64,000 bases of DNA from Naegleria gruberi (GCA_000004985.1 GG738910.1); one strand, 5' to 3'; positions 10,634 to 60,023 are shown, counted from the stretch's first letter. Numbers and translations are program-made. Notes: a model not told the origin generated them from the letters alone.

Positions 10634-12637
10634 TTACAATTCGTCATGTTGAGCATCAGCAGTGTTTGCTCCTTCAGCACCTGGTTGAGCACCACCTTGG
10701 GATTGGTAGAACTTGGTCATGATTGGCTTAATTTGTTCTTCCAATCTCTTTCTTTCTTCTTCAAATTCTTCCTTGGTAGCGTCTTGGTGTTGTTCTAACC
10801 AAGAAATAGACTTCTTGGTTTCTTCTTCGATAACCTTCTTATCTTCAGCTGGGAGTTTATCCTTGAACTTTTCATCATCCAATTGATTCTTCAATTGATA
10901 AGCATAACCTTCAAGAGCGTTTCTAGCGTCAATTCTTTCCTTTTGCTTTTTGTCTTCTTCTTCAAACTTGGCAGCTTCATTGACCATTCTTTCGATATCA
11001 TCCTTATCCATATTGAGCTTGTCGTTGGTAATAGTAATACTATTTTCAACATTGGCCTTAGAATCCTTAGCGGAAACATGAAGAATACCATCAGCATCAA
11101 CTGAGAAGGTAACTTCAATTTGTGGAACACCTCTTGGTGCTGGTGGGATACCAGTCAATTCGAATTTACCCAACAAATTGTTATCCTTAGTCATGGCACG
11201 TTCACCTTGATAAACTTGAATCAAAACTCCAGGTTGGTTATCTTGATAAGTGGAGAAAATTTGTGACTTTTGAGTTGGAATCTTAGTACCTCTTGGAATC
11301 AATTTGGTCATGACACCTCCGACAGTTTCAATACCCAATGAGAGGGAAGCAATATCAACCAAGACAATGTCTTCGTCCAATTCACCACCCAAAATACCAG
11401 CTTGAATAGCAGCACCAGCTGCAACAGCTTCATCAGGATTAATTCCTTGCTTTGGCTTCTTACCATTGAAGAAGTCAACCAACAATTGTTGAACCTTTGG
11501 AATACGAGTAGAACCACCAACAAGGACAATTTCTTGAACATCTTCCTTAGAAAGTTTGGAATCTCTCAAAACTTGTTCGACTGGCTTCAAAGTCTTGACA
11601 AACAAATCGTTGTTCAATTGTTCAAACTTGGCACGAGTCAATTTAGTGGAGAAATCAATACCATCATGGAGGGATTCAATTTCAACTCTAGCTTCATGTT
11701 GTGATGACAAAACTCTCTTGGCCTTTTCAGCTTCTCTCTTGAACTTTTGGATAGCCTTCTTGTCCTTTTCGACAGAAGCAGCAACCTTTGGATTCTTTCT
11801 CTTAAATTCATCCAAGAAGAATCTAACAACTCTGTGATCAAAATCTTCACCACCCAAGTGGGTATCACCATTGGTAGCCAAGACTTCAAAGAGACCTTCA
11901 TCCAAATTCAACAAACTGACATCAAAAGTACCACCACCCAAGTCAAAAACGAGAACATTGACATCTTTCTTATTCTTATCCAATCCGTAAGCAATAGCAG
12001 CGGCTGTTGGTTCGTTGATAATACGTTCAACACTAAGACCAGCAATAGTACCAGCATCTCTGGTTGCTTGTCTTTGAGCATCGTTGAAGTAAGCTGGAAC
12101 AGTAATAACAGCTCTGGAAACCTTTTGTCCCAAATATGTTTCAGCAATAGCCTTCATCTTTTGGAGAACCATAGCAGAAATTTCTTCTGGTGCAAAAATC
12201 TTCTTTTCACCAGCAATTTCAACTTGAATATATGGTTTACCATTCTTATCGACAATCTTGTATGGCAACAAAGCAGCATCCTTTTGAACTTCGACATCGG
12301 AGAACTTACGACCAATAAGTCTCTTAGCATCATAGACAGTGTTTGTTGGATTAATAGTAGCTTGATTCTTGGCAGCTTCACCGATGAGTCTTTCACCATC
12401 TTCAGAGAAGGCAACAACAGAAGGAGTAATACGATTACCTTGGTCATTTACTATAATTTCAGCCTTTCCGTTTTTATAAATAGCAACACAGGAATATGTG
12501 GTACCCAAATCGATACCAATGATTGGACCTCCAGACTTCTTATCAGTCTTTGTGGCATTCTCTTCAGAGAAAACAAATGTAGCCACAAAGCAGATTAAAA
12601 GAAGAGCTAACAAAGCCTTCGATGTATACTTGGACAT
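10634..12637 (-). CDS. bip: ER lumenal Hsp70 chaperone BiP/GRP78 (Kar2-like), single exon, signal peptide, C-terminal HDEL
   Basis: Real ATG; N-terminal signal peptide [18 protein letters not shown]. Hsp70 signatures seen: [34 protein letters not shown]. Ends ...AQHDEL. Strong optimal-codon bias. The opposite-strand ORFs inside it (for example 11747..12598) are antisense artefacts. Confidence 0.95.
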
Positions 12638-12913
12638 GTTGAGTTATTTTTTTTTGCTTTGATGATTCTGCAAATTTGAGTGGAATTTATTTGTGGGCTT
12701 ACAACAATTCCGAACACGTGTTCCTTGGGTGGGTAACTTCCGGAAGTAAGTAATAATTTCTCTCTTTTGGGTTGGATAACAGAGAAACACGAAAACAATT
12801 TGAAAAGTCAAAATGAATTTCTTACTCTGTATGTTGTCCACTCCATACCTAAATTTTAAAAACTCTACAGTTGTTTTTTAATTTAAATATTTAATATAAT
12901 TTATAAAAAGAAC

Positions 12914-14078
12914 ATGAAGGTTAAGGCTCTGTAAGTTTTGCGAACAGTTAAATTTTTATAGCTTTTTCAGGATTCTCGTTGGTGGCTATGGAACAAGACT
13001 TCGTCCACTTACTTTCTCAACTGCCAAGCCTCTTATTCACTTTGCAAATAAGCCAATAGTTGTTCATCAAATTGAAGCATTGAAGAAGGCAGGATGTACA
13101 GAGATTGTTCTTGCTGTAAATTATAAGCCACAAGAAATGATTGATGCTATGAAGAAGTATGAAGAAAAGTATCAAGTTAAGATTACATATTCCGTGGAAA
13201 ATGAACCATTAGGTACAGCTGGACCTTTGGCCCTTGCCAGGGATATTCTTGTTGCTGATGAGAATGAATACTTCTTTGTTTTAAATTCTGATGTTATTTG
13301 TGAATATTCGTTTGATGAACTGTTGGATTATCATAAGTATCATGGAAAGGAAGGAACCATTATGGTAACTAAAGTTGATGATCCTAGTAAATATGGTGTA
13401 GTTGTTACACAAGATGGAAAACAAGGTGAAATAGAAAAATTTGTTGAGAAACCAAAGACTTTTGTTGGTGACAGAATCAACGCTGGTATTTATGTGTTTA
13501 GTACAAAAGTGTTAGAAAGAATTGAATTGAGACCAACCAGTATTGAAAGAGAAATCTTTCCATTTATGGCCAGGGATAATGAATTATATGCAATGGATTT
13601 AAATGGCTTCTGGATGGATATTGGTCAACCAAAGGACTATATTACTGGTATGTGTTTGTATTTGTCTAGTGACAAACACAAGACAGAAAACAATCAACAA
13701 TTTGCTAAGAATCCAGAAGATGGTTCTTACCAAATAATCAATGAATCCTCAGTTCTGGTTGGAGAAAATGTTAAAATTGGAAAAGGAGCAATGATTGGAC
13801 CTAACGTAGTGCTTGGTGATAATGTCATTATAGAAGAAGGAGCCAGAGTTACTAGGTCAACAATTTTTGAATCAGCTTGGGTTAAACAACACGCTCTTGT
13901 TAAATCATCTATTATTGGCTGGAAGAGTTCTGTTGGTAAATGGTCAAGAGTGACAAATAACACAGTTCTAGGAGAAGACACACATGTCGACAATGAGATA
14001 TTTGTCAACGAGATCAAGGTGTTGCCTCACAAGACAATAAGTAGTGATGTGCTTGAACCAGGTCAAATAATAATGTAA
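12914..14078 (+). CDS. gmpp: mannose-1-phosphate guanylyltransferase (GDP-mannose pyrophosphorylase); join(12914..12930,12971..14078), 40-nt intron GTAAGT..TTTTTCAG after codon 6
   Basis: Track ORF 13080.. lacks the N-terminus. Exon 1 ATGAAGGTTAAGGCTCT spliced to G ATT CTC GTT GGT GGC gives MKVKALILVGGYGTRLRPLT (the canonical G-x-G-T-R-L N-terminus). Further matches: DIGQPKDYITG, left-handed beta-helix C-terminus, ends IIM like Psa1. Confidence 0.9.
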
Positions 14079-14886
14079 ATGAATGATTAAGAAATTTCAT
14101 TTTTATGGAGATATCAAAATTAAGGAAATTAAAAAATGAATAATACGCATTGATGCGTTCCTTGAAATAAAGAAATATATGTTTCATTGTTTTTAAATTT
14201 CCTTTTTTACGTTTTTTTCTATGTTTTGGAACAAAAAAAATATGGAGCAGTAGCTGACAGACCATCTGGATACAAGCGTTGTTTATGTGAAGGTATCTCA
14301 GAAGGTTTTCAATTATGGATGGCCAGATATTTTGGTTAGACTCTCAGATGTTGATAGAGGAGTTTCAATTAGAATTCCAAGATCGAGCGAAGCAGAAAAA
14401 AGGATACTTTGAACACAGAAGACCAGCTAGTAATGCTGATCCTTATATTATTTCTTCCTTGATCACTAACAACACTATTCTGTTGTAAGAAAGCATGAAT
14501 AACAAGTTGCTCATTTATTTAAAGAATGTATATACACCATTGGTTGCTGTTGAAGGAAACATAAGAAAACTTTTATCTAAAGTAATTTGATTGGAATAGA
14601 ATTGGACAATATCTGAAGCTGGGAATTGATAAATTATTTAACGAGTTTGGAAATCTTGAGATAGTGGAGTGGAAATCTGTATGAACTTATGTGAAAGTAA
14701 CGAATTTTCCAAAATTTAAAAGATTTCACAATATTTTCTGGCAACTTTCCTAAGAGGCAATGTAGTTCGTTTGCAATAATTTTAGTAATGATGAGCCGTT
14801 TTTTTAATAATATTATTAAGAGTGCACGGTTGTTGTGGTGAGGTGAGACGAAATATTGTGGTGCTCGCCCTTAATTATTATAAACA

Positions 14887-15894
14887 ATGCAAATAAAAAT
14901 GTCGGAATTACGTGTTCAACCTCTCGTTCTCACCGATCAGGATGTTGTTTTAGTAACAGGAGGAACCGGTCTCTTTGGTAAAGCCGTTGAACATGTTGTC
15001 AAACAAGATAATTTGCCAGGAAGTTGGGTTTTCTTAGGATCTAAGGATGGTGATTTACGTGATTTGAGTGCTTGTAAAGCACTTTTTGAAAAATACAAAC
15101 CAACCTATGTTTTACATTTGGCTGCTTTTGTTGGAGGTCTTTTCAAGAATATGAATTTTAAAGTCAGTTTCTGGCTCGACAATGTGAATATGAATAATAA
15201 TATTCTCTCATGTTGTTATGAATATGGAGTTAAAAAGACCATCTCTTGTTTATCTACTTGTGTCTTTCCGGACAAGATTGAATATCCAATTACTGAAGAT
15301 AAACTCCATGTAGGTCCACCACACTTTTCCAATGATGCCTATGCCTATGCCAAGAGAATGTTGGACATGTTGAGTGTTTGGTATAACGAACAAGCTGTTC
15401 GTGAAGGAAAGGAAAGCAGATTCTCAAGTGTTATCCCAACTAATCTCTATGGACCACACGATAATTTCAATGTTGAAAATGGTCACGTTTTGCCAGGTTT
15501 AATGCACAAGTGTTACAAGGCCCAAAAGGGAGGTTCCGATTTTATTGTTTATGGTTCTGGTAAGCCATTGAGACAATTCTTATTTTCACATGATGCTGCT
15601 CGTATGTTGTTGTGGACCATGTTGAATTATCAATCACAAGAACCAATCATGTTGTGTGTGAGTGAGGAAGATGAAAAGAGTATTGGACAAGTTGCTCAAA
15701 GTATCAAGGATGCTTTCAATTTTTCTGGAAATATGATTTTCGATACATCAAAGGCTGATGGTCAATTTAAGAAGACTGCCAGCAATGCCAAGATGTTACG
15801 TTTGAATCCAACCTTTAAATACACTCCATTTGATGAAGCCATCAAGACAACTGTACAATGGTTCTTGGATAATTATGAAACTGCTAGAAAATAA
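14887..15894 (+). CDS. ger: GDP-L-fucose synthase (GDP-4-keto-6-deoxymannose 3,5-epimerase/4-reductase; GER/FX/TSTA3-like), single exon
   Basis: Rossmann N-terminus VLVTGGTGLFGKAV; catalytic YAYAKRM (Y-x-x-x-K). SDR-extended fold of ~335 aa, typical of FX proteins. Confidence 0.9.
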   Translation: MQIKMSELRVQPLVLTDQDVVLVTGGTGLFGKAVEHVVKQDNLPGSWVFLGSKDGDLRDLSACKALFEKYKPTYVLHLAAFVGGLFKNMNFKVSFWLDNVNMNNNILSCCYEYGVKKTISCLSTCVFPDKIEYPITEDKLHVGPPHFSNDAYAYAKRMLDMLSVWYNEQAVREGKESRFSSVIPTNLYGPHDNFNVENGHVLPGLMHKCYKAQKGGSDFIVYGSGKPLRQFLFSHDAARMLLWTMLNYQSQEPIMLCVSEEDEKSIGQVAQSIKDAFNFSGNMIFDTSKADGQFKKTASNAKMLRLNPTFKYTPFDEAIKTTVQWFLDNYETARK

Positions 15895-16441
15895 ACAAAT
15901 AAAAATATTTCTTAATTGTTTTTTTGCAGGGTTTGGCACTAAACTGATACATTCCAACAAACTCTCTTGTTCCATTTCTTACCATGTCATTTGATATTTG
16001 AGATAATTTCACCACTTCATTTCAATTTTAGCCCTTGGACGAACGAATTCTTTAAATTCTATATTCTCTTGTTTAGAAATATTAATTGCATATAAATCAG
16101 TTAAGGTTCTGATTTTATAGAAAAAGGTAGATAGAAATATATCCAGAAAAATATAAATAGAATGCAAGTTTTTCATTTTTGTTTGTAGAAGACTATGACA
16201 TAAATAATTGTGCATGAGATAGATATTCATGAATAGAGTATATCATAAAAATAAGTTCAGCTTCTGATAGATCTGGAAATTGTTTCAAATTTTCAAAATA
16301 CTCCTTTGTTTGCTGGTAGTTTCTTCTTCGCTTGAATAGTTCAAGACCATACCACGAGTGAAATCTTTGAAATTGGGAACATTTTCTTCCAATTCAAATC
16401 TTTCAAATCATTCAAAAGTCTAGCATCTATCAGTTTCAAAC

Positions 16442-18199
16442 ATGAATCAACATTCATCTCATCTTTCATTCTTATTAAACGACTTGAGGGTCGCTGTGCT
16501 TAGTTTCCAGCCAAAATTTTTGTGCAAAAAAATGAACCTGCAATCATTTTCACTTTCCCCTACGCCAAAATTACGTTTTTTAACCAAAGCAGCTGTGATA
16601 GTATTTGTGATGGTGGCCTTTTTGTTGTGGAGAACTAAAAAAGACAGGTTCTCTAATAATATTCTTATTAAGGAAGATGAGACCAATCAAGCAAAACAAA
16701 CAATAGAACAACAAGTTGCAAAACTAACAACGGAACAAAAACTCAAGAAACAAGCACAACATTCTGACGATACAAAAATTTATCACCAAATTGCTGATCT
16801 TTTAACAAGACCAAGTGGTGTTGGTTCTTACGACTGGTATAAGCAACAACTTGAAAAATACAATTCAATCGGTAATACAACATTTAAGGATTCATATGTT
16901 TCAAGAATAGGATTTAAAAATGAAGAAATAACTTCGCCTAATTGGTTTCATTACTTCAGAACTTACAAGGTCAAAGAAGTATGCTCAAAACAGCATTCAT
17001 GTGAGATACTTCCATTCTCTTCAGCTCAAAGCGAACTCTCAAGAGGAGTAAAATTGGATGCAATCATCTATCATGATAAGTACAGTGAAGGAATTCTCGT
17101 GTCTGGACCTAAAGACATACCAGAACAAGTTAGTGTCAAAAAATTCCAAGAAACAATCAAATCATATGGTTTTTTAAATTCTGTTGAAGAAATATCAAAC
17201 AAGATTGATTCAGAGCTCGGGGAAACTCTTTGGAGAATGTTAAGAAGATTAACATTTTACATGAATGGGGAATCTGTTGTTAGAAACATTATTTCTGGAT
17301 ATTTGCAAACAAAAGATGATCCAGCATCAATGGAAAGATTTTCAAGCACTTCAATAGATGTTTCAGTTTGTTTTTTTAGAAGTTGTACTTTATTCAACAA
17401 TTATCTTTATTACCCAATTAATTTGCTATCGCCAAAGTTTGCCAAAAACACACAAACAAAACCTGGTTTGTGTGCTTTTATTTCAAATTGTGTAGCAGAA
17501 TCTCATGCAACTCAAAGATTACAAATCTTGGAACAACTTTCAACATACCTTCCTGTAAGACAATATGGAAAATGTGGTAGAAATGCATATGAAACTAACG
17601 GAGGTAAGATGTTCGAACTTGAACATAATTGCAAGATTTACTTTGCCATGGAAAACTCAGTAGTTCCAGATTATATTACTGAAAAATTATATGAAGGCTT
17701 CAAATCTATGGAGAATGGCGGAAGATTATTGATGGTTTACAAAGGTCCACCAAATATTGCTGATTTCAAATATCCAAAATCTGCATTCATCAATGTGGAT
17801 GATTTCTCCTCAATTGATGAGTTGGGACAATATTTGAAAAAGTTGAACGAAAATGAAGATGAATTCAATAAGAGATTTGCTGAACTAGAAAGAGACAGAG
17901 TCCAAATCAATCATGCAATTAAGATGATGAGACCAAGTCTTTCAAATTTCATCCCTTGCAGAATGTGTAAAATTGTTGGACAAACTAAATTAGCTAGATA
18001 CCTATTGTTCAAAATCGGATTACAAGTACAAAAGAAAAAACTCAACTATAGGGAATGGGATGAATTCAAGAAGCAATTCGATTATATAGGGCCAGAGAGG
18101 ATGGCAATCCTTGATTCTATTTATCTCAGAGCTTATGCAAATCAATTCCACTCAGAAAATATAAACACTGATATCAATGACGATGAAGTTTGGAAATAA
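16442..18199 (+). CDS. GT10 alpha-1,3/4-fucosyltransferase paralog A (type II membrane protein, long stem)
   Basis: Real ATG. TM segment AAVIVFVMVAFLLW near the N-terminus. Seen: C-terminal GT10 motif CKIYFAMENSVVPDYITEKLYEGF (the FucT 'alpha1,3 motif'), upstream CAFISNC and C-terminal CRMC cysteines. Confidence 0.85.
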   Translation: MNQHSSHLSFLLNDLRVAVLSFQPKFLCKKMNLQSFSLSPTPKLRFLTKAAVIVFVMVAFLLWRTKKDRFSNNILIKEDETNQAKQTIEQQVAKLTTEQKLKKQAQHSDDTKIYHQIADLLTRPSGVGSYDWYKQQLEKYNSIGNTTFKDSYVSRIGFKNEEITSPNWFHYFRTYKVKEVCSKQHSCEILPFSSAQSELSRGVKLDAIIYHDKYSEGILVSGPKDIPEQVSVKKFQETIKSYGFLNSVEEISNKIDSELGETLWRMLRRLTFYMNGESVVRNIISGYLQTKDDPASMERFSSTSIDVSVCFFRSCTLFNNYLYYPINLLSPKFAKNTQTKPGLCAFISNCVAESHATQRLQILEQLSTYLPVRQYGKCGRNAYETNGGKMFELEHNCKIYFAMENSVVPDYITEKLYEGFKSMENGGRLLMVYKGPPNIADFKYPKSAFINVDDFSSIDELGQYLKKLNENEDEFNKRFAELERDRVQINHAIKMMRPSLSNFIPCRMCKIVGQTKLARYLLFKIGLQVQKKKLNYREWDEFKKQFDYIGPERMAILDSIYLRAYANQFHSENINTDINDDEVWK

Positions 18200-19145
18200 A
18201 AACTAAAATTCTGTATCAACTGTTAAAAACGCTGTATATGCCTTCGAATATGAATTTACTGCAATTGGTTATGCATCGAATTAGAAGCAATTCTCACATG
18301 ACTGATAATGTTTATTCGTAATGAATGATTCAGATCAATAAATCTTGCTGACGATTATTCAATAATAACCGTATACTGGTATACTACCTTCGGTGTCAAT
18401 AATATGGTATTCAGTTAGTGCAAGGCCAAATTGATAGAAAAATTCACATAACTGGAGGATACAAAATCAGCAATCCAACCAGAATTCAAATAAACCAATT
18501 TTCTTCATACTTGGAAAGAGTCTCGATTGGATATTGATAATTTGCTTCTTACCATTTCGATCATGGGATTTCGCTACACCAAAAAACTGAACCGAAGGTC
18601 CTTCACATTTAAGTGGTGATAACTCTATCATTAATTCGGTAAGTTGTCGATCTATTCGAATTACCATTGTTTTCTAGTTCTGTATCTGAGGAAATTAATT
18701 GCATAGGGAAACTGTGAAAATATTTTTAAGCAAAGTAATCCATATTCTGGTAGAAGTACTTGTTTTCAACTAGGTATCAATTATTCAGGTCTGAGAGTGG
18801 TTGGAGCCTGATATAGTCATGATGATATTCCCATTAACTTTCTGTGTTATTATTGAAGAGATGTATGTTGAAAGAGAAACAAGTTTTATAAGTTAATTAA
18901 TCATGAATACTTAAGTAATTGAGAGGAATGTGTACAACGGTCGATTCGGAATTTGTTGTTGACTATTAATCGTCCTATTGATCTTCTTTAATAATGATGA
19001 TCATCGAGGAAGCTGTTATTAACATTGGCTTTTCATAAGTTGAAAGATAAGATCGGAGGTTCAGCATGCAACGTTAATGCTGTTAAGCTATCACATGGCT
19101 AAAGTAAATATTCTACGGAATCTCGTTATTTAAAAAACAATAAAA

Positions 19146-20312
19146 ATGTCTGAACCAACTGCTATTGATATTACTCAAATTCCACCTCAAATTCATCATA
19201 CAAAAGTGGCCTTAATTTCTGGTGTAACTGGACAGGACGGTTCTTACCTCGCAGAATTGCTCTTGGAAAAGGGATACACCGTTTACGGTATTATTAGACG
19301 TTCATCATCATTCAATACCGGTAGAGTTGAACACTTGTGTAAGGACATGCACGTTCTTTCTTCCAGTATGTTATTTAAATTCATGATTAATACTAAAATT
19401 TAGATAGGATTCAAGCTTGTTTATGGTGATTTGACTGATACTGGGAATCTTATTTCCATAATATCAAAGATTAAGCCTGATGAAATTTATAATCTCGGTG
19501 CTCAATCTCATGTTAAAGTCAGCTTTGAGATGCCTGAATACACTGCTAATGTTGATGCTGTTGGTACATTGAGAATGTTGGAAGCTATTCGTGCTTGTGG
19601 ATTAGAAAAGAAGACAAGATTTTATCAAGCTAGTACTTCTGAATTGTATGGTTTGGTTCAAGAAATCCCCCAAAAAGAAACCACTCCTTTCTATCCTCGT
19701 TCTCCTTATGCTTGTGCAAAGTTGTATAGTTACTGGATTGTCATTAATTATAGAGAAGCTTACAACATGTTTGCTTTGAACGGAATTCTTTTCAATCACG
19801 AAAGTATTAGAAGAGGACCAACATTTGTAACCAGAAAGATCACTATGGCTGTTGCTCGTATTCATCTTGGATTGCAAGATTGTTTGTATTTGGGTAATTT
19901 GGATGCTGAAAGAGATTGGGGGCATGCCAAGGATTATGTTAAAGCTATGTGGTTGATGCTTCAACAAGAAAAGCCAGCCGATTACTGTGTTGCCACTGGT
20001 GAGAAACACAAGGTTAGAGAATTTGTTGAAAAATCTTTTGCTGTTCTCGGAAGGAGGGTTGAATGGAAAGGAACACCAGGTACAGTTGATGAATACGGAG
20101 AAGTGGACGGTATTGTTAGAGTTAAAGTAGATCCTAGTTATTTCAGACCAACCGAAGTTGAACTCTTGATTGGTGATCCAACAAAGGCAGAAACTGAATT
20201 AGGATGGAACAGAAATGTTGGTTTTGATGAATTGGTGAAGGGAATGGTAGAAGGAGATGTTGAACTTTTACAAAAGGATGATGTTGAACTTGTTAAGAAG
20301 CAGTATCACTAA
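19146..20312 (+). CDS. gmd: GDP-mannose 4,6-dehydratase; join(19146..19365,19408..20312), 42-nt intron GTATGT..ATAG
   Basis: Track ORFs 19146..19403 and 19431..20312 are in the same frame, separated by a TAG inside a GTATGT...AG segment. Splicing gives ...[31 protein letters not shown] blocks seen: [62 protein letters not shown]. Confidence 0.93.
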
Positions 20313-20630
20313 TAAATGAAATTCCCTTTATAAATCCTGGAACCTTCTTGCTGCTTCAAGAACATCTTGTAAAAATGGTTTTTGCACGTTATGAATTCTA
20401 ATAGTTGGAATCTTAAAACTTTGATCACAATGATATCATGTTCAGTTGAACTATTAGTGAAACTATCACTACCTGAATTATAAATATAATAATTGTTGAT
20501 TGTTATTGACTTTTCTTTATTCAACAAACAATTTCCGTTCTCTATGTTGTTCTTCTCTGGGTTTTATATTAAATAGGAACAATTTAATAAATTTATTCAA
20601 TCACGACAATTAAGATTTATTTTTTAAAAA

Positions 20631-22109
20631 ATGACCATCAAAATGAGGAAGGCAATCATATCAATTCTTTGCTATTTATTGTCTTCATTTCTGTTGTATT
20701 ATTTGTTTTCTGTGAGGAGAGAGACTGCGCCTGTTAAAACCACGTTACTTAAACCATTAGATTCTACTCCAATCTTCGAATTAACAAACCCTTCCCATAT
20801 GGAAAATTCTTTTATGTGGTATTTAAGGCAAATTAAGGACCAGAAAATAGGACATGAACCTCTCTTAGAACCAATTAATTTTGCTTTTGATAGCATAAAA
20901 CTTAATGATAAGAAATGGTTTCACTTTTTTTATGATGAAGATAACAACACAAAGCAATGTAAAGTTAAAGGGTGTAAACTATTTTCCATTGATGCATCAA
21001 TAATCTCTAAAAGATTAGATGCAATAATCTACAATGTTTATATGGCCAATGGTCCAGAAATATCGAAAAAATTGTTCGAAAAATCGACAGGTAATGGAAA
21101 GAATGCCTTGCTTTCTTTAAAGAAAGTGTACAAGCAATTGAATTCAACTGCTATGGATAAGGAATTTGCAAACACTATATGGAAAGAAATGGCTCCTTTG
21201 AAAATTGTTTTTAGTTATGAACAATATACTGTAGGGGTTGTCAATCAACATATTGATTATATAGATATAAGTGGATGCAGCCATAGAAATTGTTCTATCT
21301 TTTGTGGATATAATTTTAACACAATCCAACTTGATGAAAAGGTGATAGGGACTAAAAAGAGCACGCATAATTCATTGTGTTCATTTATTTCAAATTGTGA
21401 TGTAATTGATGCAGCCCGAAGAATTCAAGATGTACTAAAGTTATCCACTTTTGTTAATGGAAGACATTATGGACAATGTGGAAAGAATGTTGCTGAAGAT
21501 TCCAGAGGAAAATTATATGAATTAGAGCATAATTGTAAATTTTATACTGCTTTTGAGAATACTAGAAAGGAAGATTATGTAACTGAGAAGTTTTTTGAAG
21601 GAATTAAGGCAATAGAGAATGGAGCAAAGGTATTGATGATTTATGATGGGGCTACAAATGTTGAAAGTTTCGGATTTCCAAAAGATGTTTTCATTAATAG
21701 AAACGACTTTAGCTCGGTGGATGAATTGGGAAAATATTTAAAGTCACTGAGTGAAGATGAATTATTATTCAACCAAACTTTTCTGAGGGCTTTTTCAAAA
21801 CAGAATATACCAATCATCGAAAAAGTCTTTAATTATCATTATTTGAAAAGAACCGACACAACAGTATGTAGAATGTGTACATCTATTGCAGAGGTGAAAC
21901 TCGCTAGGTACCTTCTTTACAAATGTGGATTGTTTGAGAAGGCTACATGGGGTGAATTTCGAGAGAGAATGAAAGTATTGCTTAGTAATGAGTCAAATAG
22001 ACTTTCTATTCTTGACTCAATGTTTGAAATTGCTTATGGAAGAGTGTTCAAGAAAAATTTGTCTGAAACAAATTGGAATGACTATAGCTATAACTATAAC
22101 ACACCTTAA
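20631..22109 (+). CDS. GT10 alpha-1,3/4-fucosyltransferase paralog B (type II membrane protein)
   Basis: Real ATG. TM IISILCYLLSSFLLYYLF. GT10 motif CKFYTAFENTRKEDYVTEKFFEGI, CSFISNC, C-terminal CRMC. Roughly 45% identical to paralog A across the catalytic domain. Confidence 0.85.
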   Translation: MTIKMRKAIISILCYLLSSFLLYYLFSVRRETAPVKTTLLKPLDSTPIFELTNPSHMENSFMWYLRQIKDQKIGHEPLLEPINFAFDSIKLNDKKWFHFFYDEDNNTKQCKVKGCKLFSIDASIISKRLDAIIYNVYMANGPEISKKLFEKSTGNGKNALLSLKKVYKQLNSTAMDKEFANTIWKEMAPLKIVFSYEQYTVGVVNQHIDYIDISGCSHRNCSIFCGYNFNTIQLDEKVIGTKKSTHNSLCSFISNCDVIDAARRIQDVLKLSTFVNGRHYGQCGKNVAEDSRGKLYELEHNCKFYTAFENTRKEDYVTEKFFEGIKAIENGAKVLMIYDGATNVESFGFPKDVFINRNDFSSVDELGKYLKSLSEDELLFNQTFLRAFSKQNIPIIEKVFNYHYLKRTDTTVCRMCTSIAEVKLARYLLYKCGLFEKATWGEFRERMKVLLSNESNRLSILDSMFEIAYGRVFKKNLSETNWNDYSYNYNTP

Positions 22110-22687: not shown

Positions 22688-25431
22688 TTACTTCAAATAC
22701 TTAGCTGAAAACATTAATTCATCTAAAACTAAACCATTATATGGTAAGGCATCACCACATGATGCACAAGATGAGAATGTATCGTCTGCAGTTGCTAATG
22801 TATATGATTCTCCGTATTTTTGCTCCATTCCAACCATGCCATTAATCTTCTTTTGAATTTGGGTAGATGTTAATTCTGTATCATTTGCATTAGTGTGGGT
22901 TGTTTCAGAACTTGCTTTTGAGTTTCCATTCTCTATAACACCCACATGTAATGTAATAGCGCTAATAGTATTATGAATTTCATGGTGTTTGAAAAGAAGA
23001 ATACTAGGTTGAGAACCTCTGTCATAACATCCAAATAACATATTTTCCTTACATGGAGAGAATGAATATTTGTGGTCCATAAAGATGCTGCTCTTTTCGT
23101 TGACCTTATTCATTTCTCTCATTCTAATTTCAGCGGTAGACTTGGCATCAACAGAGGAGCTTTGTTGAATTGAACGTACAAACTCCTGCACACTGATGAA
23201 AGAATATTGTAAAACATTAGGACAAGATAGTCTTTCCAATGAGCAGGTATAAGGGAATCGTTGCAAATTATGCTCATCTCCATTATTACAAAATCCCTCT
23301 CCCCAAACTATTGCAAGGAATGCCTTTTCCAATGAGGCATGACTCGTTCTGAATGAAGATATTGATGGATGATCACCAATACCTAATAGTTTTGGTAATT
23401 TTGGTTGTTGATAATTGTTGTCCTTTGAAATTGTCATATAGGTACCATAGATATTATTCTTTTCGGTAGAGTAGCAAATAATAATGAAAATATCAGGAAC
23501 TGGTAAATCTTCAATAGTAGGGATCAAGGCATGAATAGTCAATTTCTTCATAGACTCAAAACTGACTAAATTCTTGTTCGGTACTACTACTCTCTCTGCT
23601 AGTTTTAACTCGAGTGATTTTTCACCCTTTTGAATTTCATAATGGTGCACAGTTAGAGCTTGAGAAATTCTATCCTTACTTGCAACAATAATGGTATTTG
23701 CAAAAGCAGAAAATGATAGTAATTGAGATTCATTCGAGTCGACCTTTAAATTCTTATCCAAAATGAGTTCCCAATTATCAGAAACTTGAACCAATTTGAA
23801 GAAACTAACTATACCCGAATCAAAAAGTATTGCTAATCTGAATGACTTTAAATTATTTTTTAAACCTGTCATATCAACAACAGAGTTTCTATCCAATAAA
23901 ATCTCGTTACCGTTGCTACCTTTCAATTTTAAAGGTGGTGAGATCTTATGAGAGTTATAATCGTATATAGAATAAAAAATATTGTTGGCTTTTTCGTAGA
24001 CAATCAAAATGGTGTTGAGAGAATCAATGTTAATAATCTTTGGTGATTTTGCTTCTTCTGTACTTGGAATAGGTTCATTCCTACCATAATTAGAATATTT
24101 TGAAACAAATATCTCCATTTGTATTGGGTCAATATTACTGCTGAATCTTAAAACACCTTTCTTGGAAGGTTTCTTTGAGTATACCTCTAATGCCCTCCAA
24201 ATTTCATGCTGATCAGAGGGCTCCCAAAGGAATTTGGATTCTTCCAAATTATTGAATCTGCCATAGTTAATTTCTTGAGCTTCTTCTAAAAAGTGGGTTG
24301 GGGTTTTTTTGAAGTTTTTGGCTGCGTAATCATTTAACAATGGCTGGTTTAAATACTTAAAGCGAGAATATGGATCTTTCTTTGAAAATAGCCAACCATA
24401 TTCCTGGTTTGTTGGATCTTTAAAAACTTCTGTTGGGTCACGAGCGGATATATAAGTATAAGGCCAGTTTGGCCACTTATTCTCTAAACATTTTCTTGAG
24501 AAAGATTTTGTTCCACCACTTGTTCCACTTTCGTCCAGGATAAACTCTACGTTTAGATGTAATTTATCATTCCTAGAGTTAAATAACTGATACATTTCAT
24601 CAACAAGAATAATCCATTCATTATCTGGTTCCTTACAAGGATTTTTCATTGTTCCTACTACATATGTTCCGGTTCCTGCATTAGAATTGAACATAATTTT
24701 TTGGTACTTTAGACAAAGTGCAACATAAATTCTATCGGAACTATCAGGAAACCTATTTCTAATATCTGTTAATGTTTCAATTAAATCTATATAATCAAAA
24801 TATCCCATTCCGTTATCAGGTCCTCCAATCTTCGGTGGATCATGGGTTAAGAGAAGACAGCGATTACCATTATAAACTCCAGAGAGATCCCTTATACTTC
24901 TCTTACATAATTTACCATATGATTTGATAAAGTGGTCATAATCAATGTGGTAATAAATATCAACTTTAAAGTGTCTAACACCTTTTTGATATCCTTGAAT
25001 CCATTGTCTTAAATCATTCCATGAATGCACTTGATAGGAAATTGTAGGAGTAATCTTATTTTCAAAACTATGTGTGTCGTCAATTAATAATTCTCCATGC
25101 TCGTTCAATTCTCCAAAGCCTGGTCTATCAATCTTTGGATGGTGAGACAACAATAGGGAAGTCATCGTTAAACACATTAAAAAGACAAAAATCACAACAC
25201 TATAAAGAATTGCTTTCCGTATTGTTAACCCTGTTGTTGCCTTTTTCTTCACATTTTCTTCATCTATTAATGCACTGCTAGAGGTTGTGGTTGTATACTC
25301 ACTAACAGATACATCATTGCTCACTCTCCGATGAAATGTATATTGTTGATCAACATGCTGTATTGAATAACAGTCATCTATTTAATCGGAGGATGAATGT
25401 TATTAAAAATAAAGAATTTCCACTTACTCAT
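22688..25431 (-). CDS. type II membrane lumenal protein (897 aa model) with N-terminal PLC-like phosphodiesterase (PI-PLC X-box-like) region; tentative model complement(join(22688..25377,25428..25431)) with 4-nt first exon ATGA
   Basis: The long ORF begins at GTG with no in-frame ATG before the upstream stop. 50 nt upstream lies ATGA|GTAAGT...AAATAG|AT, which joins in frame (MNDCYSIQH...). TM VVIFVFLMCLTMTSLLL. HSWNDLRQW...RHFKVDIYYH resembles the H/H catalytic core of PLC-like phosphodiesterases. The C-terminal 400 aa are unassigned. Confidence 0.45.
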
Positions 25432-27053: not shown

Positions 27054-27190
27054 CAATATTAATCCTCATACTGTTATGGATGTTGTGAAATAGGAAGAAG
27101 GAGCCAATAGAGGATGTATTAAAATTAATTTACTTTACAACGTTAAAAGTGTGGTCCAAAGATGCTCTTGTCAGCAATCATCAGAAAAAA

Positions 27191-29057
27191 ATGTCAGGGG
27201 AACACCAAGCTCTGTCTCCAACGTCATCAGACTCTTCTGTGCCCACAATACAAATTCTACCACAAAAGGTATCATCACTACAAGATGACGATATGGATTT
27301 TAGCATTCGTACTCATCACTCTCTCAACACACCATTAACTTCTCCTAATTCTCCTTCCATGTCCTCTACCATTTCAACTCCTTCCTCAGAACCCTATCAT
27401 CCCAGCCTCATTCTCCAATCAGAACTTCCTCTCTCTCATATTAAAGTGGTGAGGAATCGTGAGGAAATTCTCTCTCCTTGTGTTTCTGCTGGCAGACATC
27501 ATCATCACATACCAGGTTCAGCATCATCTCTTGGTGGAGGAAGCACATTTGGTTCATCAACATCATTGAATGGCTTGTTAGACAATGAAGATTCTAGTCC
27601 CACAGATATCATGTCCTATAATGTGCCTCCACCAACCATTGTACCTCCATCAACATTCATAGAACCAATAACAAAGAGTGGAGTAGTGCCATGTGGTAGT
27701 GTTGATGATAATAATAATACTGACGACCATCATACAACAACATCCCTCGAAGCAGCTGCTGAAGAACTTCTTCATACGTTGGAAACTTCAAATAATCCCA
27801 AGTCATTAGAGGCTGCCATAACAACATTCATTGAACAGGAGACCACTAGAAGAAGATCTACTGTTGATAAGGAGGATATTGCAATACTACAGGAAATTGC
27901 TGCAGCCTCTTCTCAATTGGCTTCTAATACAACAACAACGGAAGAAAAAATTGAAACTCTTTCCGAAGTAGTACCAAGAAGGCTAACCATTACTTCATCA
28001 TCTGAAGAAATTAATAGAAATGAGGAGGTAAACAATAACTACAATACACTATCATTAGAAGCTTCATCAACAAATAATAACAAACCATTTAGATTCATGC
28101 AAAAAAGACCATCCTTTATTAATCCAGAATTGATGAGTATGCTCTTTTCTTCGTTATTATCCCTTCAGGATTTAAAACCGAGTGATAATCAGGTGGCTGG
28201 ACATGGACAAAAGGACGGAGAAGAACATTTAGTGGTTCGTCACTTGAGAGACAAAATTTACAAGCCAATTAATACAAAATCGAAACGTGCTTTTGATGAA
28301 GTCAAATTCTATGAACAACAGGCTCCAAAAATACCACTTTTAGAGCCTTTTCTGCCCAAATATCATGGTGTTCAGACAGTGAAGGAGAATGACCAACAAT
28401 TTTTGGTTTTGGAGGATTTAACTGCACCTTTCACAAATCCGAGCTTGTTGGATATTAGAATGGGAAGGAGAGTTTATGGAGATGATGCCAGTTTGGAAAA
28501 GATTAAAATGTTTGAAGAAAAGTACATTTATCAAAAAGAGTTAGGTTTTGGCTTTAGTAAGTATTATTGATTGATTTTTGATATTAATTTACAACATCCT
28601 AAAAGGTGGCATGAAGGTTTACAATACTGATCCAGAATTTTCTAAAATCAACAAGAGCAAGCACATAACACACAAAGATCAAAAGTATAAAGTCTATGAT
28701 AGATATTGGGGAAGACTATGTAAACCTGGAGAAGAGTCCACTGAGGCACTGGATGCCTTTTTCTTTGATACTTCATATGTAGATAGCGAAGTTGTAGGTA
28801 TCAAGACAGTGAAAAGTATATTGAGTCAATTGAAACAATTGGAAGAGTTATTCAAAACTCATCAATTGATTTTTAGAGTTTACTCGAGTTCACTATTCCT
28901 AGTTTTTGATGCAGATAAAGCAATAGTGAGGATGATTGATTTTGCTCACGTTCACGAAAACAAAGAACCATCAATTGATGAAAATTATCTGTATGGTTTG
29001 TCTAATCTGATTAACTATATTGAGGAGGTATTAAGGCGAAAAGACGCTAGTCTTTGA
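27191..29057 (+). CDS. inositol polyphosphate kinase (IPK family, Kcs1/IP6K-like); join(27191..28556,28606..29057), 49-nt intron GTAAGT..AAAAG
   Basis: PxxxDxKxG motif (PSLLDIRMGRRVYGDD); splice restores LGFGFS|GMKVY; C-terminal SSLLFVFD...IDFAHV (IPK SSLL and IDFAH motifs). Track ORF 27149 starts at GTG; the first ATG is 27191. Confidence 0.8.
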
Positions 29058-42935: not shown

Positions 42936-45073
42936 ATGGTGCTAGAGGAATTAACAGATGCCGAAAGACCTTCATCACAAAAGAAGAAAAAGGAAAACAA
43001 CCACTTCCACCCGATGCTATGGGCCATTCGGGAGAAGTCTATCATCCTATTTTGACAAGGTCTGCAGGCTATTCAAATGAACAACAGAAACAGGAACACA
43101 CTTTTCTTGTGAGTCATACACATGGCTTTGAACAAATTGTGAAGGATGAAATTCTTTTACTTTTTGACTCATTAAATTTGATGTAATTTAATTGGTATGA
43201 AAAATTAAATCCGAAAATTAGGGTCCACGATTATCCAACAACTATTGCTGGTAAATTTATGAAAAAGGTGGAAAACTCGGTACCAAACTACCTAAAAACT
43301 TTGAGTGAGAGTCACAAAGTGACATTTGTTAATTTTTCTAATTTATTTGAAATTGAATTTTTATATTCTAGAAATGGATTATTAATATTTAATGTTTCTT
43401 CTAAAGGAAGTGATAATAATTTATTTATGGAAAATCTAGTTTATTTAGTCTGCCATTTAAATGCTATTCCTAGTATTGATTTTGTGTATTCATTTATTTG
43501 CATTGTTCCTGATATACCCTTTGATAAAGAGACTACAATGCCAATATTTGCAGAAACTATACCAAAAAGAGAACAAGATACTCAAACATAGAAACAATCC
43601 TTTGAACTATTCGAAAAATTATATTGCAAAAAGTTTGAAAAACAAAATCTTTATTCCAAGGATACCAACTTTAGGGCTACTGGTGTAAGAAAACAAACAA
43701 GTATTTTGAAGCATGACTACAAATCAATGGATATGGCCGCTGAGTATGGATATGGAATTGGGGAAACAATTTGCAAGGACATGAAGGTTAACCTGAAAAA
43801 GTATGACCTTGACATGTTAATTTATTTGGATATTGATAGAGTGTTTATAGGAATGCTATTGTCCCCTCCATTACATGCTTTAGAAGAATTGAAAATTAGT
43901 TCAGCATGTTCAGGACATGGTGGTTGCATCTCACCAAATAATTGTTCATGTGTCTCTGGATATTATGGAAGTGATTGTAGCCAATTTGATTGTTATGGAA
44001 CTGCCTCCACAAATACATCAACATGTACTAATCACGGTAGTTGTATATCCCCAAATAACTGTTCCTGCTTATCAGACTATTATGGAAAAGAGTGTACTCA
44101 ATATGATTGTTTTGGAACTATTTCAACAAATGGTTCAGTATGTTCTGGACACGGTACCTGTCTCTCACCAAATAACTGCTCATGCTTAGCTGGATATTAT
44201 GGAAATGATTGTAGTGAATTTGATTGTTACGAAACTGCCTCCACAAATGCATCAGCATGTTCTGGACATGGTGGTTGCATCTCACCAAATAATTGTTCTT
44301 GTTTAGATGGATACTACGGAAATGTTTGTAGTCAATTTGATTGTTATGGAACTGCCTCAACAAGACATTTTTCTTTGAATAATCAAGTTATTGATAGAAA
44401 TCTCAGTGAGGACGAATTGAATGAATTGAATTCATGTGATTTGATTTATTCATACACTAAACAAGATATTAGATTAACCTTCGGAAAATCTATCTTGAAA
44501 CCTCAAACAAGTTACATGCTTTGGAAAACTTTACTGATGGAAAATTCAATTTTACGAGACAAATTATTCCAACAATCACAATTAGTTACTTTTGTTGATC
44601 CATTTGCAGGAAGTGGTACTCTTTCACTCTCACTTAATTATCTCTTCACTGATAATGATCCTAAAGTTCAACTTTATAATATTGATTTCAATCTAGATGA
44701 AGTGAGTGTTATGAAGGATAATTGCAGCAAAAACAGAAATAATCATATTTTAAATTGTGATTCTAGATTCTTACCTTTTAGAAATGAAAGCATTGATGTT
44801 GTTATATCAGATATGCCATTTGGAGTTTTATGTGAAAATCACTCTAGAAACTCAAAGGTCTACCCAAAGATTGTAAAACAACTCGAAAGAATTGTTAAGC
44901 CTGATGGAATTGTAATGCTGTTGACAATTGAACTTACCTTACTGGAATCTCAACTGAATGCCAGAAATCGGTGGACATTCACAACACAAAAAGTAACACT
45001 TGGAGATTTAGGTAAGGAATCCAAGCAACCATTTACATTGGCAAGAAGAAACCTCCACAAAATAAATTTATGA
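42936..45073 (+). pseudogene. methyltransferase copy B (inverted paralog of the 1..1492 gene), disrupted by a 1-nt deletion (~42995) and a TGG>TAG nonsense (43589..43591) and carrying a 465-bp in-frame insertion; a C-terminal ORF 43706..45073 remains open
   Basis: Direct nucleotide comparison with the reverse complement of 1..1492. About 97% identity from ~42975 onward. Copy A reads through where copy B has stops. DPFAGSGT/DMPFG methyltransferase motifs are intact in the open C-terminal ORF. Confidence 0.6.
43898..44362 (+). repeat. 465-bp array of ~4 tandem 117-bp (39-aa) EGF-like/tenascin-type cysteine repeats inserted in frame into methyltransferase copy B
   Basis: Repeat unit (S/T)ACSGHGGCISPNNCSC(L/V)xGYYGxDCSQFDCYGTASTN(T/A)S, iterated about 4 times. 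First and fourth units are near-identical at the nt level. The sequence is absent from copy A, which goes straight from ...gaaaatt to agacattttt. Confidence 0.75.
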
Positions 45074-59868: not shown

Positions 59869-60023
59869 GGAACCTGCTAATGTGTAGCCAACGATTCGAG
59901 TACGTGTTGACAAACGTGGCTGAGTGCGAAGTTGTTTCTGAAAGGAGAAGGGGATCGCAACAACTTTGCTGTTGGTCATCATTTAAAAAAAAAATTGCCG
60001 TACAATTTTATCCGCAAAGTACA

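What the first reader, a model, noticed from the sequence alone, without database searches (positions are those of the whole stretch)
12914..22109. Operon-like eukaryotic gene cluster encoding the whole GDP-mannose -> GDP-L-fucose pathway plus two fucosyltransferases
Five consecutive genes, all on the + strand with 318-946 bp spacers, encode the full route. GMPP makes GDP-Man from Man-1-P, GMD makes GDP-4-keto-6-deoxy-Man, and GER/FX makes GDP-L-Fuc. Two type-II-membrane GT10 alpha-1,3/4-fucosyltransferases with the CK(I/F)Y(F/T)A(M/F)EN-x(5)-DY(I/V)TEK motif then use the GDP-fucose. In eukaryotes these genes are normally dispersed. Tight, co-oriented linkage of a complete nucleotide-sugar pathway with its transferases looks like a metabolic gene cluster or a former bacterial-type island. 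GMPP and GMD each contain a spliceosomal intron and all five show host-like codon usage. So this is native nuclear DNA, not contamination. BiP lies head-to-head just upstream and a lumenal type-II membrane protein just downstream. A Golgi GDP-fucose transporter is not in the window.
Basis: partly seen in the sequence, partly recalled or inferred. Interest (0 to 1): 0.85.

Follow-up and report, generated by a model that had tools for sequence, protein, structure and literature searches.

The report
Naegleria gruberi GDP-fucose/fucosyltransferase gene cluster
Five neighbouring genes in the amoeba Naegleria gruberi encode the whole route from mannose-1-phosphate to GDP-fucose plus two fucose-adding enzymes; the cluster is real, made of native genes, seems to have formed recently in this lineage, and is not an operon or a bacterial import.

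Summary
The window is Naegleria gruberi NEG-M nuclear DNA. Window 12914-22109 carries five co-oriented genes: GMPP, GER/FX, a GT10 fucosyltransferase, GMD and a second GT10 fucosyltransferase. All identities are backed by Pfam, NCBIfam, PDB sequence matches and, for FucT1, a confident AlphaFold model whose best fold matches are GT10 enzymes. Both proposed introns are correct.

The genes are native: codon usage is host-like, the nearest relatives are heterolobosean, and the GMD intron sits at the same position and phase as in N. fowleri. So this is not a former bacterial island. It is not operon-like either, because the spacers (318-946 bp) are longer than other same-strand spacers in the window.

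The linkage is absent in N. fowleri, N. lovaniensis (different contigs), Willaertia magna and Acrasis kona. The cluster GMD is one of three N. gruberi in-paralogs. The cluster GER has a near-identical copy on another scaffold and lacks the RING-gene neighbour shared by Willaertia and N. fowleri. The cluster therefore looks assembled in the N. gruberi lineage by DNA-level duplication or relocation. Chance adjacency is excluded (expectation about 1e-10 or less). Co-regulation is untested. I found no paper describing it.

The parts
12638..12913 (.). 276-bp divergent intergenic region between BiP and GMPP. It contains the palindromes GAACACGTGTTC (12712-12723) and TTCCGGAA (12738-12745).
   Evidence: Read directly from the sequence. 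A regulatory role is inferred only.
12914..12930 (+). GMPP (mannose-1-phosphate guanylyltransferase, GMPPB type), exon 1
   Evidence: The spliced product equals EFC38171.1/D2VYB3 exactly.
12931..12970 (+). GMPP intron, 40 nt, GTAAGT...CAG
12971..14078 (+). GMPP exon 2
   Evidence: Pfam NTP_transferase and GMPPB_C. The best PDB matches are catalytic GMPPs: Arabidopsis 7x8j 1.5e-133 and human GMPPB 7d72 2e-125.
14887..15894 (+). GER/FX (GDP-L-fucose synthase), single exon. The annotated start is at 14899 (EFC38172.1, 331 aa).
   Evidence: Pfam Epimerase. PDB 6AQY 3e-199 and human 4E5Y 1e-114. 100% match to P0140.
16442..18199 (+). FucT1, a GT10 alpha-1,3/4-fucosyltransferase-like type-II membrane protein. 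The annotated model EFC38173.1 starts at Met31, position 16532.
   Evidence: PF00852 4.9e-30. 100% match to P0001. AF2 pLDDT 81.6, and the top Foldseek matches are FUT9, AtFUT11, mango FUT13 and H. pylori FucT. Transmembrane anchor at residues 43-65.
19146..19365 (+). GMD (GDP-mannose 4,6-dehydratase), exon 1
   Evidence: The spliced product equals EFC38174.1/D2VYB6 exactly.
19366..19407 (+). GMD intron, 42 nt, phase 1, GTATGT...TAG. It has the same position and phase as the roughly 400-nt intron of N. fowleri GMD.
19408..20312 (+). GMD exon 2
   Evidence: TIGR01472 573 bits against a cut-off of 415. PDB 5UZH 1e-206.
20631..22109 (+). FucT2, the second GT10 fucosyltransferase-like type-II membrane protein (492-aa ORF). 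The public model EFC38175.1 covers only 21153-22106.
   Evidence: PF00852 6.3e-24. 33% identical to FucT1 over the full length. Transmembrane anchor at residues 7-28. Annotated fragment mapped.

Best explanation
This is a native, lineage-specific metabolic gene cluster in the nuclear genome of Naegleria gruberi.

How it should work: three cytosolic enzymes (none has a hydrophobic segment) convert mannose-1-phosphate to GDP-L-fucose. GMPP makes GDP-mannose, GMD makes GDP-4-keto-6-deoxymannose, and GER makes GDP-L-fucose. After import into the Golgi by a transporter encoded elsewhere, two divergent type-II GT10 enzymes transfer fucose to glycan acceptors. By family, the linkage is expected to be alpha-1,3 or alpha-1,4 to GlcNAc.

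Each gene is most likely transcribed from its own promoter; this is not an operon.

How it arose: the cluster was assembled after the N. gruberi lineage split from the N. fowleri/N. lovaniensis lineage. The mechanism was DNA-level duplication and/or relocation of vertically inherited genes into the interval next to BiP. This happened during a wider N. gruberi expansion of fucose genes: 3 GMD, 2 GER and at least 6 GT10 paralogs. One extra GMD and one extra GT10 lie on the same scaffold.

Shown: gene identities, native origin, non-random adjacency, lack of linkage in relatives, and the in-paralog status of the cluster GMD.

Inferred: selection for co-expression or co-inheritance as the reason for the linkage, the acceptor and linkage specificity of the transferases, and Golgi localisation.
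For: Identities.

Source organism and annotated models.

Native origin:
- Codon usage correlates with neighbouring genes, r = 0.79-0.93 against 0.69-0.95 for the neighbours themselves.
- The top GER hits are N. fowleri 83%, Willaertia 74% and Acrasis 67%.
- The GMD intron position and phase are shared with N. fowleri.

Unlinked in relatives:
- N. fowleri GER, GMD and BiP loci each show no other pathway gene within +/-10 kb, and GER and GMD sit on different contigs.
- N. lovaniensis GER and GMD are on different contigs.
- The Willaertia and Acrasis GER loci and the Acrasis FUT12 locus have no partners.

Derived status:
- The three N. gruberi GMDs share 24 derived sites against N. fowleri + N. 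lovaniensis. The window copy has the most private changes, 10 against 1 for the copy on the 938-kb scaffold.
- The window GER differs by about 5 residues from a second copy on a 261-kb scaffold. That second copy keeps the ancestral residues at two of those sites.
- A RING-transmembrane gene flanks GER in both Willaertia and N. fowleri (41% identity, 7e-119) but is absent from the window.

Non-randomness: chance expectation 1.6e-12 to 2.2e-10.

Topology: one N-terminal anchor in each FucT and none in the three soluble enzymes.
Against: - There are no expression data, so co-regulation, the usual functional hallmark of a metabolic gene cluster, is untested.
- No shared upstream motif was found.
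- Synteny between N. gruberi and N. fowleri is generally low (PMC6125883, citing Herman 2013). Absence of linkage in those species is therefore weak evidence on when the cluster formed.
- Gene conversion among the N. gruberi GMD copies could mimic a recent in-paralog origin.
- GMPP also feeds all mannosylation, so its membership in a 'fucose' cluster may be incidental. I could not establish whether it is the only catalytic GMPP in the genome.
- I could not read the other N. gruberi scaffolds. The positions of the extra copies rest on contig lengths and accession order.
- Absence of this GT10 subfamily from N. fowleri is not proven.
Confidence: 0.62

Rival explanations
1. Neutral by-product. 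The region is a local duplication and rearrangement hotspot, and the adjacency of fucose-pathway genes has no regulatory or selective meaning. The genes are independently expressed, and some are redundant copies drifting towards loss.
For: - Fucose genes are multi-copy in N. gruberi, and several sit on the same scaffold.
- The window GMD is the fastest-evolving of the three copies.
- The window GER carries derived substitutions where the other copy keeps the ancestral residue.
- There is no shared promoter motif.
- The linkage is not conserved in any relative examined.
Against: - Duplication explains paralog adjacency, but not the juxtaposition of four non-homologous families. The chance expectation for that is 2.2e-10.
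- FucT1 and FucT2 are not sister paralogs (33% identity), so they are not a simple tandem pair.
- All five ORFs are intact with their family motifs.
Confidence: 0.22
2. Ancestral Naegleria (or heterolobosean) cluster that was retained in N. gruberi and broken up in N. fowleri, N. lovaniensis, Willaertia and Acrasis.
For: - The GT10 paralogs are old (30-51% identity), and Acrasis has a member of the subfamily.
- Genome rearrangement between Naegleria species is extensive (PMC6125883).
- N. fowleri GER and BiP are still on one contig, about 85 kb apart.
Against: - It requires independent dispersal in several lineages.
- GER has the same RING-transmembrane neighbour in Willaertia and N. fowleri, which points to a non-clustered ancestral locus.
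- The three N. gruberi GMDs group together against N. fowleri + N. lovaniensis.
Confidence: 0.1
3. Horizontally acquired bacterial or giant-virus glycosylation island, later ameliorated and given introns.
For: The layout (nucleotide-sugar synthesis genes next to glycosyltransferases, all on one strand) resembles bacterial O-antigen/capsule loci and giant-virus glycosylation clusters. This comparison is from background knowledge.
Against: - GER, GMD and GMPP have heterolobosean or eukaryotic nearest relatives.
- GMPP carries the eukaryotic GMPPB_C domain.
- The GMD intron is shared with the unlinked N. fowleri ortholog.
- GC content and codon usage are host-like.
- There are no flanking repeats, tRNAs or mobile-element genes.
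- The nearest non-Naegleria GT10 relatives are eukaryotic: Acrasis, Synstelium, Closterium, Lingula.
Confidence: 0.02
4. A true operon: one polycistronic transcript processed into five mRNAs.
For: Five co-oriented genes of one pathway.
Against: - The spacers of 318-946 bp (median 678) are longer than other same-strand spacers in the window (median 275).
- Same-strand runs of unrelated genes occur nearby in the window.
- Polycistronic transcription and spliced-leader trans-splicing are not known in Naegleria (background knowledge).
Confidence: 0.04

Closest known systems
Eukaryotic metabolic gene clusters (for example the yeast GAL and DAL clusters, and plant and fungal specialised-metabolism clusters)
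   Same: Three or more non-homologous genes of one pathway lie physically adjacent in a nuclear genome. They are built from native genes by duplication and relocation rather than by transfer of an operon. The cluster is lineage-restricted, and each gene has its own promoter.
   Different: The pathway here is nucleotide-sugar synthesis plus glycosyltransferases (primary glycosylation), not catabolism or secondary metabolism. The host is a heterolobosean amoeba. Co-expression is not shown. One member, GMPP, is a housekeeping enzyme.
Bacterial O-antigen, colanic-acid and capsule loci (manC-gmd-fcl plus fucosyltransferase genes), and the H. pylori GT10 FucT
   Same: The enzyme set is the same (ManC/GMPP, Gmd, Fcl/GER, fucosyltransferase) and is encoded side by side on one strand. 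The same GT10 fold is present (2NZW, 5ZOI).
   Different: There is no polycistronic organisation. The genes are eukaryotic-type orthologs with spliceosomal introns, and GMPP is the GMPPB type. There is no flippase, polymerase or other polysaccharide-export gene, and no sign of transfer.
Eukaryotic GT10 alpha-1,3/4-fucosyltransferases (human FUT9, Arabidopsis FUT11/FucTA, mango FUT13)
   Same: - The PF00852 catalytic domain is present.
- The FxAxENS-x4-DY(I/V)TEK donor-binding motif is present.
- The fold is a GT-B two-domain fold.
- There is a type-II anchor.
   Different: - Identity is only 17-19% in structural alignments.
- There is no Pfam match to the GT10 N-terminal domain PF17039.
- The stem and N-terminal domain are long.
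- A roughly 80-residue helical C-terminal extension carries a conserved CR(M/I/F)C...KLARYLL motif.
- The subfamily so far appears restricted mainly to Naegleria gruberi, Acrasis and environmental contigs.
- The acceptor is unknown.

Membership tests
CAZy GT10 fucosyltransferase (FucT1, FucT2) | Match to the GT10 catalytic domain (Pfam PF00852) above the gathering score | tested here: met
   105 bits (FucT1) and 85.1 bits (FucT2) against a cut-off of 23.9.
CAZy GT10 fucosyltransferase (FucT1, FucT2) | Conserved alpha-1,3-FucT donor motif F-x-x-x-F/M-E-N-(S/T)-x(3-4)-D-Y-(I/V)-T-E-K | tested here: met
   Read from the translations and alignment A1: CKIYFAMENSVVPDYITEK and CKFYTAFENTRKEDYVTEK. 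E404, Y411, E414 and K415 are invariant across 28 sequences.
CAZy GT10 fucosyltransferase (FucT1, FucT2) | GT-B two-domain fold resembling solved GT10 enzymes | tested here: met
   Tested for FucT1 only. AF2 pLDDT 81.6. Foldseek top 18 hits are all GT10: FUT9 3e-11, AtFUT11 3e-10, mango FUT13, H. pylori FucT.
CAZy GT10 fucosyltransferase (FucT1, FucT2) | Sequence match to the GT10 N-terminal (acceptor) domain PF17039 | tested here: not met
   There is no PF17039 hit. Distant animal homologs do carry it. The structural alignments nevertheless span 360-450 columns, which covers both domains.
CAZy GT10 fucosyltransferase (FucT1, FucT2) | GDP-fucose-dependent alpha-1,3/4 transfer to GlcNAc | not testable with these tools
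   Needs an enzyme assay.
GDP-mannose 4,6-dehydratase | Equivalog-level HMM match and SDR motifs (GxxGxxG, YxxxK) | tested here: met
   TIGR01472 573 bits against a cut-off of 415. PDB 5UZH 1e-206 and human 1T2A 1e-152. GVTGQDGSY and YACAK are visible in the sequence.
GDP-L-fucose synthase (GER/FX/TSTA3) | Orthology to characterised or solved GDP-L-fucose synthases | tested here: met
   PDB 6AQY 3e-199 and human 4E5Y 1e-114. The best NCBIfam match is GDPFucSynFcl, but at 188 bits against a cut-off of 500; that model is bacterial. STC, YAYAK and GPHDNF are present in the sequence.
Catalytic GDP-mannose pyrophosphorylase (GMPPB/VTC1 type) | NTP_transferase domain plus GMPPB C-terminal beta-helix domain; closest to catalytic rather than regulatory (GMPPA) subunits | tested here: met
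   PF00483 145 bits and PF25087 95.7 bits against a cut-off of 39. VTC1 1.5e-133 and GMPPB 2e-125, against GMPPA 1.4e-49.
Eukaryotic metabolic gene cluster | At least 3 non-homologous genes of one pathway physically adjacent, beyond chance | tested here: met
   Four families in five consecutive genes. The chance expectation is 2.2e-10 or less.
Eukaryotic metabolic gene cluster | Co-expression or co-regulation of the members | not testable with these tools
   No expression data are available. The upstream k-mer search found no shared motif, which is not decisive.
Operon (polycistronic unit) | Very short intergenic distances or a single transcript | tested here: not met
   Spacers are 318-946 bp with a median of 678, against a median of 275 for other same-strand neighbours. 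Transcript structure was not testable.
Horizontally transferred island | Atypical composition, prokaryotic or viral nearest relatives, no host-type introns | tested here: not met
   (composition). (relatives). (introns; the GMD intron is shared with N. fowleri).

The most novel reading that the evidence does not exclude
The locus is a recently self-assembled, selection-maintained glycosylation cluster in a free-living protist. Native GMD and GER duplicates and two old GT10 paralogs were recruited next to GMPP. Together they form a co-regulated module that makes a lineage-specific fucosylated surface or cyst-wall glycan. The dispersed ancestral copies continue to serve housekeeping fucosylation. 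If so, it would be a tractable case of metabolic-cluster birth outside plants and fungi, and for a primary glycosylation pathway.
Probability: 0.35. Interest if true: 0.6.

Novelty: new member of a known kind. Interest (0 to 1): 0.45.

Why it matters
Metabolic gene clusters in eukaryotes are documented mostly in fungi and plants, and mostly for catabolism or specialised metabolites. A complete nucleotide-sugar pathway sitting next to its transferases in a heterolobosean would extend the phenomenon in two ways: to a deep-branching protist lineage, and to glycosylation.

This case also offers internal controls. Dispersed paralogs exist in the same genome, and unlinked orthologs exist in N. fowleri. 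Those make it possible to ask whether clustering changes expression. It may also bear on the reported differences in fucose glycoconjugates between N. gruberi and the pathogen N. fowleri (Cervantes-Sandoval 2010, cited in PMC6125883).

If the genes turn out not to be co-expressed, the locus is a curiosity of a duplication-prone region.

Tried and rejected
1. Exact-protein look-ups of N. gruberi models, to read the rest of the scaffold and the other scaffolds, failed (the PDB-derived N. fowleri GER construct also failed). The positions of the extra GMD, GER and GT10 copies are therefore inferred only from contig length and accession order.
2. The first AlphaFold run on a 4-sequence alignment was unusable (pLDDT 42). 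It was repeated with 28 sequences.
3. A k-mer search for a shared promoter motif upstream of the five genes found nothing specific.
5. The word-indexed search with FucT1 missed three N. gruberi paralogs that were later found by the exhaustive profile search. Its lack of N. fowleri hits is therefore not taken as proof of absence.
6. The hypothesis that GMPP-BiP adjacency is ancestral was rejected. N. fowleri BiP (L006) and a metagenomic Naegleria-like BiP contig (L009) have no GMPP next to them. The Hexapep gene at the edge of L006 does not match GMPP.
7. The hypothesis that the 878-aa downstream ORF is the ortholog of the 879-aa gene beside N. fowleri BiP was rejected: there is no similarity.
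8. The metagenomic FucT contig L007 and the Acrasis FUT12 locus L008 were checked for adjacent pathway genes. None were found.
9. Literature searches for the cluster found nothing.

Full report
SOURCE AND OBSERVATION

The window is nuclear DNA of Naegleria gruberi NEG-M, from a 243,952-bp scaffold. FucT1 is 100% identical to EFC38173.1. My spliced GMPP and GMD translations, and BiP, are exact matches to EFC38171.1, EFC38174.1 and EFC38218.1.

Window 12914-22109 holds five + strand genes, in this order:
- GMPP: 12914-12930 + 12971-14078, with a 40-nt intron.
- GER/FX: 14887/14899-15894.
- FucT1: 16442-18199.
- GMD: 19146-19365 + 19408-20312, with a 42-nt intron.
- FucT2: 20631-22109.

Further support:
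- GMD passes the TIGR01472 equivalog cut-off.
- PDB sequence searches give catalytic GMPPs (1.5e-133), N. fowleri GDP-fucose synthetase 6AQY (3e-199) and N. fowleri GMD 5UZH (1e-206) as best matches.
- FucT1 modelled with a 28-sequence alignment reaches pLDDT 81.6. Its 18 best Foldseek matches in the PDB are all GT10 fucosyltransferases.
- FucT1, FucT2 and the downstream 878-aa ORF each have one N-terminal hydrophobic anchor. GMPP, GER and GMD have none.

The spacers are 808, 547, 946 and 318 bp.

BiP lies head-to-head upstream. No nucleotide-sugar transporter domain occurs in any tested ORF of the window.

- Gene order is not pathway order.
- The motif is EN-x4-DY, not x(5).
- The public model of FucT2 (EFC38175.1, 318 aa) covers only 21153-22106. 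The 492-aa ORF aligns with its paralogs from the membrane anchor onward.

IS IT MORE THAN CHANCE?

The genome has 15,711 predicted genes (PMC6125883). The expected number of five-gene runs made only of such genes is 1.6e-12. Even the conservative requirement of four families side by side gives 2.2e-10. The adjacency is not random.

Co-orientation, by contrast, is unremarkable: P = 1/16, and a 7-gene + run of unrelated genes lies at 34.5-48 kb. The spacers are longer than other same-strand spacers in the window, with a median of 678 bp against 275 bp. 'Operon-like' is therefore not supported. No k-mer is shared specifically by the five upstream regions.

NATIVE OR ACQUIRED?

- GC content and relative synonymous codon usage of all five genes fall inside the range of their neighbours.
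- The closest GER relatives are N. fowleri (83%), Willaertia magna (74%) and Acrasis kona (67%).
- GMD falls in one 90%-identity cluster with the N. fowleri and N. lovaniensis GMDs.
- The GMD intron is phase 1 and lies in the codon just before FKL in both the window and N. fowleri. Only its length differs: 42 nt against about 400 nt.
- GMPP is the eukaryotic GMPPB type.
- The nearest outside relatives of the GT10 subfamily are eukaryotic: Acrasis FUT12, a dictyostelid, Closterium and Lingula.
- There are no flanking repeats, tRNAs or Rfam hits.

A bacterial or viral island is effectively excluded.

IS THE LINKAGE CONSERVED?

No, in every relative I could examine.
- In N. fowleri, GER (contig VFQX01000022.1) and GMD (VFQX01000004.1) are on different contigs. 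Neither has GMPP, a GT10 gene or the other enzyme within +/-10 kb.
- In N. lovaniensis, GER and GMD are on contigs of different length.
- The GER loci of Willaertia and Acrasis, the Acrasis FUT12 locus and a metagenomic contig carrying a subfamily member have no pathway neighbours.
- The N. fowleri BiP locus lacks all five genes. The only other window gene found there is the mitochondrial-type RNA polymerase: 4 kb from BiP in N. fowleri, and 22 kb away in the opposite relative orientation in N. gruberi.
- tblastn of all window ORFs of 100 aa or more against all fetched loci, and of the relatives' flanking genes against the window, found nothing else.

A caveat applies. N. gruberi and N. fowleri have little synteny in general (PMC6125883), so non-conservation alone says little.

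HOW THE CLUSTER AROSE

GMD. The three N. gruberi GMDs share 24 derived residues against N. fowleri + N. lovaniensis. They are therefore in-paralogs, unless gene conversion has homogenised them. The copy on the 938-kb scaffold has 1 private change, while the window copy has 10. The retained intron shows that duplication was at the DNA level, not by retroposition.

GER. The window GER differs at about 5 residues from a second copy on the 261-kb scaffold. At two of these sites the other copy keeps the residue seen in N. fowleri. In both Willaertia and N. fowleri, GER lies beside an orthologous multi-pass RING protein (41% identity, 7e-119). That gene is absent from the window. The ancestral GER locus was therefore not this cluster.

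Fucosyltransferases. FucT1 and FucT2 are only 33% identical and are not sister paralogs in a neighbour-joining tree. They are not a recent tandem pair.

Wider neighbourhood. A further GMD (D2VY91) and a further GT10 gene (D2VYA1) lie on the same scaffold. By accession order they are roughly 22 and 11 genes upstream of the BiP/GMPP junction, outside the window. This points to a wider fucose-gene neighbourhood.

The most economical reading is stepwise assembly in the N. gruberi lineage, by duplication and relocation of native genes.

MECHANISM (partly inferred)

The cytosolic steps are GMPP, then GMD, then GER, which together make GDP-L-fucose. A transporter encoded elsewhere would import it into the Golgi. 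The two type-II GT10 enzymes would then fucosylate glycans.

By family, the expected linkage is alpha-1,3 or alpha-1,4 to GlcNAc. The closest solved relatives are plant core alpha-1,3-FucT, FUT9 and mango FUT13. The acceptor is unknown.

This subfamily has no Pfam-detectable GT10 N-terminal domain. It also carries a conserved cysteine-containing helical C-terminal extension.

Why the genes are linked remains open. It could be co-regulation in a shared chromatin domain, co-inheritance of a dispensable module, or no selective reason at all.

COMPARISON AND NOVELTY

Structurally the locus meets the definition of a eukaryotic metabolic gene cluster, a kind known from fungi and plants. It is not an operon and not a transferred island.

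The individual genes have been public and automatically named since 2010. I found no paper describing the cluster, within a library that lacks many subscription papers.

I rate it a new member of a known kind, of moderate interest. The key missing evidence is expression data.

Noticed in passing
window 20631-22109: The public gene model for FucT2 (EFC38175.1/D2VYB7, 318 aa) corresponds only to 21153-22106. The intact 492-aa ORF includes the membrane anchor and an N-terminal domain that aligns with five paralogs, so the annotation appears to be truncated at the N-terminus.
   Followed up: yes
window 12712-12745: The 276-bp divergent BiP/GMPP promoter region contains a perfect 12-nt palindrome, GAACACGTGTTC (with a CACGTG core), at 12712-12723. 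It also contains TTCCGGAA, which resembles a heat-shock element (nTTCnnGAAn), at 12738-12745. These may be stress or UPR elements for BiP.
   Followed up: no
window 22688-25324 (-): An 878-aa ORF with a single N-terminal anchor, 14 Cys and no Pfam, NCBIfam or PDB sequence match. It has no similarity to the genes flanking BiP, GER or GMD in N. fowleri or Willaertia. It is an orphan lumenal or extracellular protein lying tail-to-tail with FucT2. Whether it is functionally tied to the cluster is unknown.
   Followed up: partly
window 10634-12637 and 34541-37342; L006 10001-12019 and 16380-19334: Linkage between BiP and the mitochondrial-type RNA polymerase is shared with N. fowleri (76% identical polymerase). 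However, the interval is 4 kb with different genes in N. fowleri and 22 kb in N. gruberi, and BiP is inverted. The interval has therefore been heavily remodelled.
   Followed up: partly
outside the window, same 243,952-bp scaffold and other N. gruberi scaffolds: N. gruberi carries 3 GMD (D2VYB6, D2VY91, D2V516), 2 GER (D2VYB4, D2VYL8) and at least 6 members of this GT10 subfamily (D2VYB5, D2VYB7, D2VYA1, D2VYN3, D2UZK5, D2VJX9). D2VY91 and D2VYA1 are on the same scaffold as the cluster. D2VYL8 and D2VYN3 share the 261-kb scaffold. The public GER model D2VYL8 lacks 17 residues relative to the window GER, probably because of a falsely predicted intron.
   Followed up: partly
window 27149-28570 and 28578-29057: The inositol polyphosphate kinase (IPK) domain is split across two adjacent + strand ORFs (profile positions 1-52 and 56-190). 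This implies a short intron or a frame change in one gene.
   Followed up: no
window 59598-60710 and 60602-61108: The cyclin (PF08613) domain is split across two overlapping + strand ORFs. This is probably one gene with a short intron.
   Followed up: no
window 43706-45073: A single ORF combines EGF-like repeats (residues about 67-217) with a UPF0020/RMKL-like methyltransferase domain (residues about 294-433). This is an unusual pairing of an extracellular-type repeat with a methyltransferase. It may be a real fusion or two neighbouring exons or genes read through.
   Followed up: no
FucT1 residues about 500-566 (window about 17940-18140) and the equivalent region in FucT2: The subfamily has a conserved C-terminal helical extension beyond the GT10 catalytic domain. 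It carries an invariant C-R-x-C and the motif KLARYLL(F/Y)K-x-GL, and is modelled with pLDDT of about 95. The CRLC part is also present in plant FucTA. The rest appears specific to the subfamily.
   Followed up: partly
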